From Promethearchaeota archaeon (GTDB lineage: Archaea; Asgardarchaeota; Lokiarchaeia; Sigyniarchaeales; SOKP01), in NCBI GenBank assembly GCA_016840165.1, contig JAEOSU010000076.1, forward strand, positions 1 through 64,000: a DNA stretch of 64,000 nucleotides, in the 5' to 3' direction. The notes beneath the pieces are model-generated. The model saw only the letters and a program-made list of their open reading frames with translations. It was not told where the DNA came from and made no database searches. Shown in pieces: positions 20,476-27,492 of this stretch (positions within the stretch are counted from its first letter, which is position 1; each line of letters begins with the position of its first letter). The translations under genes and the position numbers were made by a program.

Positions 20476-22557
20476 ATGGACTTATTTTTTGATCTCAAAA
20501 GGAAAAAAATTGGATATTCCCGGATTGGGCGAATACATCTATCATCTAAGATTAAAACCTATTTTAAAACCCCCAACTTAGTCATTCCGATGACAAATAC
20601 CTTAATTAGCAATATGAATTTCTTAGAATATTTCGAAACTCATGAGGTCTTTTTTATTACTAAACAGATCTTCTTAAAAATTGGATTTCTACGCGACAAA
20701 TTCAAAAATACAAGCTTTATATATTCCCATAACGGTACGATCGCAAAGTTTAAACAAATTCTAAATAAAAATCCAAATATTTTTACCCAAGATAATGTAA
20801 TCTCGATTATTCCTTTTAATGTACCGACCACATCAATCGAAAAAGATTTTGCTACGCAAGAAATCGGAATTTATCTCAATCATGTGAAAAGTGTATTAGA
20901 GGCATACCCTAATAGCAATTTTGGATTTACTATCAGGATTTTTGATTATTCCGAGTTAATAGATTTGTATATTCCATTAATAAAAGCAAATAATAATATT
21001 AAAATATTAAATTTTGCTGATTTGTTTGATAGTTTTAAAAATTTTAGGGCAATTCTTAGAATTATTAATAATGTTAAGCTCGAACTCAACAATAATCTCG
21101 TTTTAATGGCTTCAGGCCGATTAATTCCTAAGTATTACCCATTCTTAATATATTTGGGATTTGATCTGATTGATAGTTCTTATATGATGTACCTTTCCGC
21201 AGAGAATTTTTATAATACAACTGAAGATTTATTACCTATATATAAACTTAAAGATTTACCTTGTCCGTGTATTGCATGTTCAGGAAAATTAAAAAATCTC
21301 TTACAGGATAAATATTCGCAAGAGAAGATATTACTACTTACACTCCACAATTTAATTTCGGCAAAAATATATATGAATAAAATTAAGCAATTTTTAGATA
21401 CTGAAGATTATAGGTCATTCTTAGAAAAGACAACTCATGATGATACTTTATTATATTCAAGTTTAAAGACATTAGATAAAGAGTTTTTTGAAAGTCTCAG
21501 ATTAGAGACTCCATTATTATCAACAAGCACACTAGTTAAATGTATTGGTCCAATTTCATATCATAGACCCGATTTTAAGGAGTTTAGAGACAGAGTTGTA
21601 AATAACTTCATACCAGAGCCATGGACGAAATTAATAATAATTTTACCGTGTTCTGCGAAAAAACCTTATTCTGAGTCTAAGTCGCATAAAAAATTTTATA
21701 AGGTTATAAGAAAATTTCCTGAATTTCCTGATTTTCAAGAATTTATTTTAACTTCTCCTTTAGGAGCAATTCCAAGGCAATTAGAAAACATATACCCTGT
21801 CAACTCTTATGATATTCCGGTTACAGGAGATTGGGATCAAGAGGAGATATATATTTCCGCAGAGATGTTAACCAGCTTATTAAAGAAATACGATAATGCA
21901 ATCCCAATAATCTGTCACTTAAAGGAAGGAGGATATTCCTCAATTATAGAAGAAGTAATCAAAAAAGTTGATCACAAGTTTTATTTTACTGAATCTGATG
22001 ATAATCTTACCTCTAAGAATGCTTTAAAATCATTAGAAGAGAAGATAGAAACTTTAAAAAATAGCAAAATTGATGTCTTAAATCCTTCAACTCTCCAGCC
22101 TCTTATTACCAATTCATGGACAAGAAAATTTATTAAAATTGCGGATTATCAGTACGGGGCAGACTCTGGTATGAAACTTTTTGCCAATGGAGTAAAAATG
22201 AGAAGAAATCGGGCTAAAACGAAAATTGAAATCATCGATCAAAAAAGTAATGAATCTATCGGGAAATTTGACTTGAATAAGGGTCAAATTGAATTGACAA
22301 TAGCTGGTGCTGAACAATTATTCCCGTATAGAAGTGATGGTAATTATCTCGTGTTTGATGGTGAAAAAGTTAAAGGAAGTAATCTATTTAGACCAGGAGT
22401 AATTGAATTTAGTCCTAATATATTACCCCAAAGTAACATTGCTATATTAGACAAAAATAAACAAAAAATCATAGCCGTTGGAAATGCAATTATTGGTTCG
22501 AATAATATTAGAAATATTAAAAAAGGATTAGTAGCTGAAATCTATGAGAAGCTCTAA
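20476..22557 (+). CDS. arcS: Archaeosine synthase ArcS (TGT-like, DUF5591, PUA)
   Basis: SRIGRI..KTP, CPCIAC Zn site, LPCSAKKPYSESKSH, TSPLGAIPRQLE, YDIPVTGDW and C-terminal PUA. Confidence 0.92.
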   Translation: MDLFFDLKRKKIGYSRIGRIHLSSKIKTYFKTPNLVIPMTNTLISNMNFLEYFETHEVFFITKQIFLKIGFLRDKFKNTSFIYSHNGTIAKFKQILNKNPNIFTQDNVISIIPFNVPTTSIEKDFATQEIGIYLNHVKSVLEAYPNSNFGFTIRIFDYSELIDLYIPLIKANNNIKILNFADLFDSFKNFRAILRIINNVKLELNNNLVLMASGRLIPKYYPFLIYLGFDLIDSSYMMYLSAENFYNTTEDLLPIYKLKDLPCPCIACSGKLKNLLQDKYSQEKILLLTLHNLISAKIYMNKIKQFLDTEDYRSFLEKTTHDDTLLYSSLKTLDKEFFESLRLETPLLSTSTLVKCIGPISYHRPDFKEFRDRVVNNFIPEPWTKLIIILPCSAKKPYSESKSHKKFYKVIRKFPEFPDFQEFILTSPLGAIPRQLENIYPVNSYDIPVTGDWDQEEIYISAEMLTSLLKKYDNAIPIICHLKEGGYSSIIEEVIKKVDHKFYFTESDDNLTSKNALKSLEEKIETLKNSKIDVLNPSTLQPLITNSWTRKFIKIADYQYGADSGMKLFANGVKMRRNRAKTKIEIIDQKSNESIGKFDLNKGQIELTIAGAEQLFPYRSDGNYLVFDGEKVKGSNLFRPGVIEFSPNILPQSNIAILDKNKQKIIAVGNAIIGSNNIRNIKKGLVAEIYEKL

Positions 22558-23635
22558 TGAGAATGATTCATTAATCGTGAAGATTAAACAAAATAGAAAG
22601 AAATTTATTCAAAATAGAACCAAATCGTCAAGCATAGTACTCGATAAACCCGTCAGTTTTTGGATCAAAGAGGACCGATTATTAAATAAGAAAGGTAAAG
22701 AATTTACAATAATATTACGAACCAGAGGTTGCAGTTGGGCTTTAGGAGATTCGGGGGGGTGTTCGATGTGTGGATATATAGGAGATTCGAACATTGATCC
22801 AGTCGATCCTGAGCAAATTCTCCATCAGTTTGAATATGCTATGAAAGCTAAAGAACATGAAATTATTTCATCCAAGGATGATTTTGTGCTTAAAATTTTT
22901 AACTCAGGCAGTTTTTTCGATGATGAGGAGATTCCAGAGAATATTAGAGCCAAAATATATGATAAGATTAAAAATTACGATAAAATTAAGGAAGTTGTTA
23001 TCGAATCTCGTGCTGAATATTTAACAGAATCTAAATTAGATGCTATACAGAATGCTTTGCAAGATAAATATGTGGAAGTAGCAATTGGTCTTGAAAGTGT
23101 TGATGATCATATTCGAAATAATTATATTAATAAAGGATTACTATACGATGATTTTTTAAAAGCAGTAGAGTTATGTAAAGAATTTAATTTAGGGATAAGA
23201 GTTTATTTACTTTTTAAACCACCATTTCTCAACGAACAAGCAGCTATTGATGACTGTATCAATTCGGTAAATACTTTAATCAATCTACACGTGAACACTA
23301 TCTCAATTAATCCAGTAAATATCCAAAAAGGATCATATGTAGAATATCTTTGGTACCAAAACCGATATCGACCACCCTGGTTTTATTCTCTTATCAAAGC
23401 TTTAAAAAAAATACTTTTAAGTAGAAGAGATGAAATTTCTACTCGTATTATTTCTGATCCGTCTGGAGCAGGCACAAAGCGAGGGATTCATAACTGCCTC
23501 AAGAGAGAATGTAATGAAAATATGCTATCCTTATTAAGAAACTTTGTTATCACTCAAAATGTTGAAGATTTATTAAAAGACGTTCCTAAATGTGATTGTA
23601 AATTAGAATATAAATTAAAAAAATTGTATATGTGA
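22544..23635 (+). CDS. raSEA: Archaeosine biosynthesis radical SAM enzyme RaSEA
   Basis: LRTRGCSW...GGCSMCGY, FNSGSFFD, KPPFL, YRPPW and RGIHNC; overlaps arcS. Confidence 0.92.
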   Translation: MRSSNENDSLIVKIKQNRKKFIQNRTKSSSIVLDKPVSFWIKEDRLLNKKGKEFTIILRTRGCSWALGDSGGCSMCGYIGDSNIDPVDPEQILHQFEYAMKAKEHEIISSKDDFVLKIFNSGSFFDDEEIPENIRAKIYDKIKNYDKIKEVVIESRAEYLTESKLDAIQNALQDKYVEVAIGLESVDDHIRNNYINKGLLYDDFLKAVELCKEFNLGIRVYLLFKPPFLNEQAAIDDCINSVNTLINLHVNTISINPVNIQKGSYVEYLWYQNRYRPPWFYSLIKALKKILLSRRDEISTRIISDPSGAGTKRGIHNCLKRECNENMLSLLRNFVITQNVEDLLKDVPKCDCKLEYKLKKLYM

Positions 23636-23902
23636 TCCATTGATAAAGAAACACTTGATATTTTTTTGGCTTTTATAAAGAATGTCTAAAATTTAACATC
23701 AAATTAACGAATATAATAAAAAATTCTTGAATAATATTCTAATCTGAGCATTTGGTTATCAAATTTTACACTAAGAAGAAAAATTTTGTCAATTCTTGCT
23801 CAATCGCATTCAAAAATGTAAAATACACATGGAAAAAAGTTATATTTAAATAGTAGGTTTCAATGTTCTATTTTAAATTTTAATAATTAGTTAGGGTAAA
23901 CC

Positions 23903-24151
23903 TTGAAAAACTGGGTCAAATTAAGCTTGTTCTACCTCGGGGACTCTAAAAAGAACCGTATTTTTAGAGCGAAAAGATGGAATAAAAATCTTGAAAAAGT
24001 AACTCATAAACCCATTTTTACCGAGGAATATGAAGAAATCGGTATAATAAAAGAGATTTTTGGTCCTATTAATTTACCATTTATTTCAGTTAAAGCTCAT
24101 CATAAGACCCAGATAAATTCTAATAGTAATTATTATGTAAAAATTCACTAA
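23903..24151 (+). CDS. gar1: Gar1/Naf1-family H/ACA RNP protein
   Basis: [19 protein letters not shown]; conserved position upstream of tfb. Confidence 0.82.
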
Positions 24152-26325: not shown

Positions 26326-26641
26326 GGAAATTCAGCATATATTGTAGCCTAAAACACTAACTCCTTTTGTTCATTTTTTGGTTACACCATTAAAATCAAA
26401 AAAGTTCTCTCGTGTTAGGCAATAATTTCTATGCCTTTTTGGGAACATAATCATGTCTTCCATCTGGGTACTGACTCTGACTTCATCGCTTTGGTATTCA
26501 CCTTTGCTAAATCAAGAGCCCATTTGTCTGGAAATGTGTTGATTATTAAATTCTGGATGTAAGCATTATTTTGCACAATTACTCATCGATTTTCATAATT
26601 GTCCTCGAAAATGCTCTGGTTATTCCTTCATCATTTTCCCA
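26326..26641 (-). ncRNA. Putative composite box C/D - H/ACA guide RNA (three H/ACA hairpins)
   Basis: 5' GGAAA-ATGATGA (box C, 26634-26628) and 3' CTGA-ATTTCC (box D, 26335-26332) with a terminal stem. Three pocketed hairpins (26614-26563, 26534-26457, 26420-26347) are each followed by ACA. TATA-like element about 25 nt upstream. Confidence 0.8.
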
Positions 26642-26660
26642 GTATTATTATATAATATCT

Positions 26661-26676
26661 TATTAAAAATTTTTAC
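26661..26676 (-). promoter_or_regulatory. BRE/TATA-like promoter of the guide RNA
   Basis: Minus strand TAAAAATTTTTAATA about 20-30 nt upstream of the predicted RNA 5' end. Confidence 0.5.
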
Positions 26677-26892: not shown

Positions 26893-27492
26893 ATGAGTAT
26901 CGTATTTATTATCCAATCTAGCACAATAGAACTTAAAAACTATACTATTAAGGATATTCCTGGTTCTTCTGGCAGATTAGATGTTATTTCAAGAGCAATT
27001 TTAGCAGCACTCATGGGAGAGAATGGAATAGAGCAAAATGTTGAAATATGGGTATTTTTAGATAATTATGGTACTTTTATATTTAAATCAAATAATTTAG
27101 ATGAAAATACCTTTCCTAAAAATGAAATTTTACTCTCAGATTACTTTGTAAAGATTATTCTGAAAGGTAGTGATCCAAAATCTCTAGATAAAAATCCATT
27201 AAATATGGTTGAGCATGTACATCTAAATGTAATTGATGCAATCGAGAATTTTAAGGAATGTAATTACCAGATATTAATATTACATGAGGAGGGGGAAGAT
27301 TTTTATCCTTTGTTTACTAATCTTGATAAGCAAAGTAAATTGCTATTTATTATCGGAAATCAAATTGGTGAGATGTTAAATTCAGAAGATCTGATGCACT
27401 TTGACTTTAAAAGAATTAGTTTAGGAAAGCAAAAATATTTAGCATCCTCGGTTATTCGGTTATTAAAGCTGAATTTAAGGTTAATATTATGA
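26893..27492 (+). CDS. trmY: tRNA (pseudouridine54-N1)-methyltransferase
   Basis: DIPGSSGRLDVISR, PKNE, LHEEGED, FIIGNQIG and ISLGKQKYLASSVI. Confidence 0.9.
   Translation: MSIVFIIQSSTIELKNYTIKDIPGSSGRLDVISRAILAALMGENGIEQNVEIWVFLDNYGTFIFKSNNLDENTFPKNEILLSDYFVKIILKGSDPKSLDKNPLNMVEHVHLNVIDAIENFKECNYQILILHEEGEDFYPLFTNLDKQSKLLFIIGNQIGEMLNSEDLMHFDFKRISLGKQKYLASSVIRLLKLNLRLIL

What the first reader, a model, noticed from the sequence alone, without database searches (positions are those of the whole stretch)
26558..26614. Hairpin 1 pocket predicts a pseudouridine in the 23S peptidyl-transferase loop
Seen: pocket strands UUCGAGG (5') and GCAAAAU (3') predict a target UUUGC-U-N-CCUCGA with exactly 14 nt to ACA. 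Recalled, to be verified: the archaeal 23S domain V reads ...UUGCUACCUCGAUGUCG..., which places the target U at the E. coli 2496 equivalent, a site pseudouridylated in yeast (about 2865). More tentatively, the hairpin 3 pocket (GAGAG / UAGU) could fit helix 69 (ACUA-U...CUCUC). No target was recognised for hairpin 2.
Basis: partly seen in the sequence, partly recalled or inferred. Interest (0 to 1): 0.7.

Follow-up and report, generated by a model that had tools for sequence, protein, structure and literature searches.

The report
Asgard three-hairpin pseudouridine guide RNA
This hairpin is the first of three in a real, roughly 305-base guide RNA of an Asgard archaeon that most likely tells the enzyme Cbf5 to turn one uridine beside the ribosome's catalytic centre into pseudouridine; the same site and a related guide were already shown in Pyrococcus, so it is an old shared feature, here with an extra folding element.

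Summary
The hairpin is real: minus strand 26615-26558, pocket UCGAGG/GCAA, 8-bp upper stem with a K-loop, exactly 14 nt to ACA, stems covarying. The recalled target sequence is wrong for this organism: its own 23S reads CUUGC-UU-CCUCGA. The pocket still pairs (4+6 bp), is the single best site in 16S+23S (0/400 shuffles), and points at the E. coli 2496 equivalent (yeast Psi2865). The hairpin is motif 1 of a ~305-nt, three-motif H/ACA RNA (26640-26334) seen in at least ten Asgard families. Intermediate homologues link it to Pab40/Afu4/HgcG, whose motif 1 was shown to make this same pseudouridine in Pyrococcus abyssi (Psi2588). It is therefore not a special Asgard-eukaryote link. Hairpin 3 fits helix 69 (1915/1917). 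Hairpin 2 is not orphan: it covaries with helix 92 and points at U2554 (yeast Psi2923), possibly also U2586. I found no description of a second K-turn closing the base of hairpin 1 (23/26 Asgard, 0/5 Halobacteriota homologues). Modification itself was not testable. The scan has reported this RNA before in other Asgard genomes.

The parts
26334..26640 (-). Whole three-motif box H/ACA RNA, about 305 nt; ends inferred from where conservation stops
26661..26669 (-). TATA-like box about 21-29 nt upstream of the conserved 5' GGG (inferred promoter)
   Evidence: sequence; inference, not tested
26558..26615 (-). Hairpin 1 (the finding): lower stem, pocket, 8-bp upper stem, K-loop, ACA; guide for 23S U2496 (E. 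coli numbering; G000:C64:53191, minus strand)
26603..26608 (-). Hairpin 1 5' pocket strand UCGAGG, pairs with 23S 2498-2503
   Evidence: invariant in 32 Asgard copies
26571..26574 (-). Hairpin 1 3' pocket strand GCAA, pairs with 23S 2492-2495; starts 14 nt before ACA
26624..26636 (-). Outer K-turn, bulged (box C-like) strand: AAAU, GAU bulge, GA, AGGA
26548..26557 (-). Outer K-turn, partner (box D-like) strand directly after the ACA of hairpin 1
26454..26533 (-). Hairpin 2 with K-turn and ACA (26456-26454); pocket AUGGGC (26523-26518) / CAGU (26473-26470) fits helix 92 U2554; ACCCAG (26469-26464) fits 2579-2584
26447..26546 (-). Outer helix enclosing hairpin 2 (26546-26540 with 26453-26447); conserved but almost without covariation
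26343..26420 (-). Hairpin 3 with K-turn and ACA (26345-26343); pocket GAGAG (26411-26407) / GUUAGU (26361-26356) fits helix 69, U1915 and U1917
26335..26434 (-). Outer helix enclosing hairpin 3 (26434-26430 with 26339-26335); both arms lost together in four homologues
23903..24151 (+). gar1, one of the four H/ACA proteins, 2.2 kb from the RNA (context)
   Evidence: Pfam PF04410, E 2e-7

Best explanation
The hairpin is motif 1 of a three-motif archaeal box H/ACA guide RNA, a divergent Asgard relative of Pab40/Afu4/HgcG. L7Ae binds the K-loop, Cbf5 with Nop10 and Gar1 docks on the lower stem and ACA, the two pocket strands pair with 23S 2492-2495 and 2498-2503, and U2496 is left unpaired 14 nt from ACA and is isomerised to pseudouridine. 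Shown here: structure, covariation, pairing with the cognate 23S, numbering, presence of the four protein genes, homology through intermediates. Inferred: protein binding and the modification. Hairpin 3 likely guides helix 69 (1915 and/or 1917; about 0.8) and hairpin 2 helix 92 U2554 (about 0.6), perhaps also U2586. The outer K-turn most likely binds a further L7Ae and protects or organises the 5' end (inference).
For: Cognate 23S gives 4+6 Watson-Crick pairs and the best score in 16S+23S, 26 against 14 for the next site; 0/400 shuffled pockets do as well; no comparable tRNA site, and the only other genomic match with U in place is antisense to an ORF. Geometry equals the productive 10/5/9 K-loop fold listed for Pa40.1-L2588 (PMC4652768). 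Pocket invariant and stems covarying in 32 copies from 11 Asgard families (128 double changes against 50). A homologue from family f27 matches Rfam HgcG over its full length (46.2 bits, E 3.4e-10) and ANME homologues at 31.5-35.4 bits, with the same motif order and pockets. P. abyssi Psi2588 was mapped by CMC and made in vitro by Pab40 motif 1 (PMC2377435); spacing 2549-2588-2603 equals yeast 2826-2865-2880 (39 and 15 nt), and yeast 2826 is E. coli 2457, which gives 2496. Cbf5 over the NCBIfam cut-off, Gar1, Nop10 and L7Ae by motif. RNA libraries of four studies hold 169-235-nt pieces at 98.6-100% identity within 26386-26624.
Against: No modification data exist for this organism. The 3' duplex is only 4 bp. 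The locus itself has no Rfam HgcG hit even at E 10. No guide-target covariation could be shown for hairpin 1, since the target is nearly invariant. In Archaeoglobus motif 1 was also assigned to a 16S site (PMC4652768), so motif 1 can change target. The outer helix starts right after ACA and could hinder Cbf5. RNA contigs show neither strand nor ends, and the runs were chosen because they hold this stretch.
Confidence: 0.88

Rival explanations
1. The RNA pairs with 23S at these sites as a folding chaperone during large-subunit assembly, and hairpin 1 does not catalyse, because the outer K-turn helix buries its ACA.
For: The outer helix begins immediately after ACA. In genus g2 of family f2 the pockets and outer K-turn persist while the ACA is gone. 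The three targets are all functional centres.
Against: ACA and the 14-nt spacing are kept in nearly all copies, which only catalysis requires. Guides without ACA or lower stem still work in Sulfolobus and Haloferax (PMC11077068, PMC7075261).
Confidence: 0.06
2. Hairpin 1 is an active H/ACA guide, but its main target is another RNA or another site, or it has several targets.
For: Archaeal motifs can guide up to three sites (PMC2377435). The genome's rRNA and tRNA set is incomplete (only the 3' parts of 16S and 23S; 13 tRNA calls).
Against: Full-length 16S and 23S of a same-genus genome give one clear site; the pocket is invariant across the phylum, as expected for an invariant rRNA target.
Confidence: 0.04
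3. The RNA is a composite box C/D plus H/ACA (scaRNA-like) guide whose 5' box C pairs with a 3'-terminal box D and also guides 2'-O-methylation or acts like U3.
For: AUGAUGA near the 5' end and CUGA near the 3' end are present in this copy (earlier notes e1-5517469, e1-5517471).
Against: The 3' CUGA is present in only 17 of 29 same-genus copies; the segment after the box C-like element is short and variable. The box C-like element covaries instead with the strand just after hairpin 1's ACA, leaving no free 10-21 nt guide before a box D.
Confidence: 0.02

Closest known systems
Pab40 / Pf7 / Pho40 / Afu4 three-motif H/ACA sRNA (Rfam HgcG, RF00064; PMC2377435, PMC4652768)
   Same: Three motifs in the same order; motif 1 is a K-loop hairpin with CGAGG / GC(A/G)A pocket aimed at the 2496 site; motif 2 carries ACCC; motif 3 carries GUUA for helix 69; homologues of this RNA match the Rfam model over its full length.
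   Different: A+U-rich and too divergent to score on RF00064 itself; an outer K-turn caps motif 1 and outer helices enclose motifs 2 and 3, whereas 27 Halobacteriota HgcG hits have the hairpins joined directly; motif 2 has GGCU instead of GGUC and an added CAGY, fitting U2554 better than 2555 or 2586.
Haloferax volcanii sR-h45 (PMC7075261)
   Same: Its two stem-loops guide Psi2605 (E. coli 2586) and Psi1940/1942 (1915/1917), the sites that fit motifs 2 and 3.
   Different: Only two stem-loops, no 2496 guide. Sequence homology to this RNA was not tested.
Yeast snR46 (Psi2865), snR10 (Psi2923), snR191 (Psi2258/2260) (PMC8307265)
   Same: Same rRNA positions, all also modified in human.
   Different: Separate two-hairpin snoRNAs without K-turns (own knowledge); no homology test was run, so shared target is not shared descent.
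Pab21 / snoR9 (RF00065), H/ACA motif on one transcript with a C/D box RNA
   Same: H/ACA motif and box C/D-like sequences in one RNA.
   Different: In Pab21 the two modules are in tandem; here the C- and D-like strands enclose the H/ACA hairpin as a single K-turn and no methylation guide is evident.

Membership tests
Archaeal box H/ACA guide RNA (hairpin 1) | Lower stem, internal-loop pocket, upper stem | tested here: met
Archaeal box H/ACA guide RNA (hairpin 1) | ANA box 14-15 nt from the top of the pocket | tested here: met
   14 nt; rule from PMC2377435
Archaeal box H/ACA guide RNA (hairpin 1) | K-turn or K-loop, 8 bp plus two sheared GA pairs above the pocket | tested here: met
   descriptor in PMC4652768 supplement
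Archaeal box H/ACA guide RNA (hairpin 1) | Bipartite pairing with a cognate RNA leaving U-N unpaired | tested here: met
   4+6 bp with own 23S
Archaeal box H/ACA guide RNA (hairpin 1) | Cbf5, Nop10, Gar1, L7Ae encoded | tested here: met
   by profile; Nop10 and L7Ae by motif only
Archaeal box H/ACA guide RNA (hairpin 1) | Expressed as a discrete RNA | tested here: inconclusive
   present in RNA libraries of four studies; contigs give no strand, ends or level
Archaeal box H/ACA guide RNA (hairpin 1) | Binds the proteins and makes pseudouridine | not testable with these tools
   needs mapping or reconstitution
Rfam HgcG / Pab40 (RF00064) | Score at or above the gathering cut-off of 77 bits | tested here: not met
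   no hit at the locus; best Asgard homologue tested 46.2 bits. Not filed as an RF00064 member; called a divergent relative
Rfam HgcG / Pab40 (RF00064) | Three motifs in the order 2496 site, helix 92/2586, helix 69 | tested here: met
Rfam HgcG / Pab40 (RF00064) | Motif 2 pocket GGUC / AACCC for U2586 | tested here: not met
   ACCC kept at 13 nt from ANA, but the 5' strand reads GGCU
Box C/D methylation guide | Terminal box C/box D pair with a 10-21 nt guide upstream of a D or D' box | tested here: not met
   3' CUGA in 17/29; box C-like strand pairs next to hairpin 1 instead

The most novel reading that the evidence does not exclude
In Asgard archaea motif 2 of this ancient RNA has shifted from the euryarchaeal sites (2555/2586) to U2554, so that one RNA, capped by an extra L7Ae-binding K-turn, installs pseudouridine at 2496, 2554 and 1915/1917, all of them sites that yeast and human modify with separate snoRNAs (snR46, snR10, snR191); it would then be the best candidate for the archaeal forerunner of those snoRNAs.
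Probability: 0.25. Interest if true: 0.6.

Novelty: new variant of a known kind. Interest (0 to 1): 0.33.

Why it matters
The hairpin 1 prediction itself adds an Asgard example to a guide-site pair proven in Pyrococcus in 2008, so it shows that Psi2496 and its guide are at least as old as the split between Asgard and euryarchaeal lineages. No paper in the library describes an Asgard H/ACA RNA and Rfam misses it, so it is a usable annotation and gives three to five concrete rRNA positions to test in cultured Asgard strains. The parts that could surprise a specialist are the extra K-turn enclosing hairpin 1 and the likely shift of hairpin 2 to U2554, next to the A-loop, a site so far associated with eukaryotes in the papers read here.

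Tried and rejected
Rfam scans of the window and locus: no H/ACA family hit; the weak snoR31 C/D hit (E 2) reflects the box C/D-like K-turn only. Rfam rRNA models did not find the genome's own rRNA, which survives only as contig-end fragments; helix 69 is not assembled, so hairpin 3 was tested on same-genus 23S. Test for guide-target covariation at hairpin 1: families f10 and f11 have G at 2495; a search for a CCAA-pocket version found only unpaired, apparently coding matches, so inconclusive. A loosened descriptor in 251 Halobacteriota genomes gave mostly noise. The phylum descriptor (143/400 genomes against about 29 for the reversed control) includes chance matches and misses true copies, so it is no census. 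The U2586 register for hairpin 2 in this genome has 6 bp on the 3' side but a broken 5' side; not rejected, not supported. An idea that loss of ACCC tracks a U2586C change failed: G207 lost ACCC but keeps U2586. U3-like and terminal C/D readings rejected. Lack of RNA cover on flanking genes is not used as evidence. Pab40 and Afu4 sequences were illegible in the paper supplement; the Rfam consensus was used instead. The sigma-70 promoter scan does not apply to archaea.

Full report
Observation. The interval 26558-26614 lies in the gap between a roadblock-type gene and a trmY-like methyltransferase gene of a Promethearchaeia (Loki-type Asgard) genome bin; homologous records are titled Promethearchaeota. 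On the minus strand it reads as a textbook archaeal H/ACA hairpin: lower stem 26615-26610/26567-26562, pocket strands UUCGAGG and GCAAAAU, an 8-bp upper stem closed by GA/GA and an 8-nt loop, and ACA at 26560-26558, exactly 14 nt from the top of the pocket. This matches the published productive geometry (8 bp, RA, loop, UGA, 5-nt 3' guide, 9 nt, ANA; PMC4652768). Folding energy is unremarkable (z -1.42), but conservation is not: 30 of 36 same-genus genomes hold the region, pockets and ACA are invariant while stems change in pairs, and pair counts exceed all 500 shuffles and all slid controls.

Target of hairpin 1. The genome's own 23S is assembled only in its 3' part, at the end of contig C64. 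It reads CUUGC-UU-CCUCGA, as do the other same-genus 23S genes. On full 16S and 23S of a same-genus genome this is the top site by a wide margin (26 against 14), and 0 of 400 shuffled pockets reach that score. No tRNA site compares, and the one other genomic match is antisense to an ORF. Alignment to an annotated E. coli 23S places the first unpaired U at 2496. Yeast Um2921 is E. coli 2552, so yeast Psi2865 (snR46, also in human) is the same position (PMC8307265).

The larger RNA. The hairpin is the first of three in an RNA of about 305 nt (26640-26334). A descriptor for hairpin 1 alone found it across the phylum, and reading on from those hits showed the same three motifs in families f1, f2, f6, f7, f16, f19, f26, f27, f28 and f31, motifs 1 and 3 in f30, and motif 1 alone in f15. 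A scan of all genome contigs also returned Methanosarcinales (ANME) copies with all three motifs. Cbf5, Gar1, Nop10 and L7Ae are encoded, gar1 only 2.2 kb away. RNA libraries from four studies contain near-identical pieces within 26386-26624; this shows presence, not strand, ends or level.

Hairpin 3. GAGAG/UAGU fits helix 69 with U1917 at 14 nt from ACA, and the invariant GUUA fits the 1915 register. The pairing alone is weak (81/400 shuffles). The ANME copies have GAGGG where the Asgard copies have GAGAG, in line with the CCCUC of euryarchaeal helix 69 (own knowledge) against CUCUC in Asgard. The related motifs Pab40.3 and H. volcanii SL2 are proven helix 69 guides.

Hairpin 2. It is not orphan. 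AUGGGC pairs with 2557-2562 and CAGU with 2550-2553, leaving U2554 and two further bases open (score 27, 5/400 shuffles with the register chosen by hand). Guide and helix 92 change together between lineages: ACAGGC with GCCUGU in f19, AUAGGU with GCCUAU in f27; on the 3' side CAG faces C2551 here, UAAC or CAAC faces U2551 in f27 and f28, and CAC faces G2551 in f31 (guide and 23S from two species of one genus); f19 keeps one mismatch there. Position 2555 is A in this genome, so the site reported for Afu4 motif 2 (A. fulgidus 2601, E. coli 2555 by the paper's offsets) cannot be modified, yet the pairing is kept, which points to U2554 (yeast Psi2923). The spacing is long here (17 nt), which Haloferax work shows to be tolerated (PMC7075261); in genus g23 the ACCC element is lost and CAGC sits at exactly 14 nt from an AUA box. 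ACCCAG, held at 13 nt from ACA, also fits 2579-2584 for Psi2586, the target of the euryarchaeal motif, but the 5' strand has changed from GGUC to GGCU and pairs poorly. I put U2554 at about 0.6 and added U2586 activity at about 0.3.

Extra scaffold. The box C-like sequence at 26636-26624 pairs with the strand directly after hairpin 1's ACA (26557-26548) as a standard K-turn with a 3-nt bulge; its canonical stem covaries (U-A, U-G, C-G in the genus; AGC/GCU in other families). It was found in 23 of 26 Asgard copies and 0 of 5 Halobacteriota copies scored, and 27 Halobacteriota HgcG hits begin at the first hairpin with hairpins joined directly. Short outer helices enclose hairpins 2 and 3; both arms of the latter are lost together in four copies. 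This explains the box C and box D look-alikes without a methylation guide: the 3'-terminal CUGA is in only 17 of 29 copies and the supposed U3-like segment is not conserved.

Comparison with what is known. Pab40, Pf7, Pho40 and Afu4 (Rfam HgcG) have three motifs; motif 1 makes Psi2588 of P. abyssi 23S, seen by CMC and in vitro, and motif 3 the helix 69 site (PMC2377435). The spacing 2549-2588-2603 equals yeast 2826-2865-2880, so 2588 is E. coli 2496. It works like Pab40 and is very probably descended from the same gene.

Verdict. Observation confirmed; interpretation right on site, wrong on the recalled sequence and on hairpin 2. The 2496 guide is a new copy of a proven guide-site pair and not an Asgard-eukaryote peculiarity. 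The outer K-turn and the likely U2554 target make the whole RNA a variant that I did not find described. Other agents of this scan reached the same reading on other Asgard genomes; I read those notes after my own tests and do not count them as support. Interest 0.33.

Noticed in passing
L279, L314, L315 (family f2, genus g2; one is a single-contig 4.4 Mb genome): Motif 1 keeps both pocket strands and the outer K-turn but has lost its ACA box and most of the lower stem, resembling the atypical H/ACA-like guides of Crenarchaea; matters for choosing a cultured test strain.
   Followed up: partly
L319-L333 (Halobacteriota HgcG hits over or near the Rfam cut-off): Motif 1 has a different 5' pocket (GGGGAGG-type) from the CGAGG of L334-L345 and of Asgards, in line with the reported 16S target of Afu4 motif 1; the guide appears to have switched target in that group.
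   Followed up: no
L106 (family f30), L088 and L089 (family f15), L275 (family f2): Motif loss: f30 has motifs 1 and 3 only; f15 has motif 1 alone, upstream of a gene; L275 has motifs 1 and 3 with an unrelated structured insert.
   Followed up: no
G000:C6:29313 and 28065, minus strand: Two copies, 1.25 kb apart, of a 20-nt sequence resembling the helix 69 loop of 23S, each followed by similar downstream sequence; probably a duplicated coding segment.
   Followed up: no
window 20476-24151: RNA-modification neighbourhood: TGT/DUF5591/PUA protein, radical SAM protein (archaeosine pathway by own knowledge), gar1 and tfb, with a trmY-like gene at 26893-27492 on the other side of the RNA.
   Followed up: partly
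L043 (G015:C263): The 23S in this same-genus bin is bacterial in sequence, a binning contaminant; excluded from target analysis.
   Followed up: yes
G000:C64 23S fragment, about 500-540 and 850-1010 nt from the contig end: A+U-rich insertions in domains V and VI of the 23S, in keeping with the expansion segments known for Lokiarchaeota rRNA.
   Followed up: no
L263 (G307, family f28): The 23S match spans 4.8 kb and has an extra segment in helix 91/92 region and after 2595, suggesting introns or large insertions.
   Followed up: no
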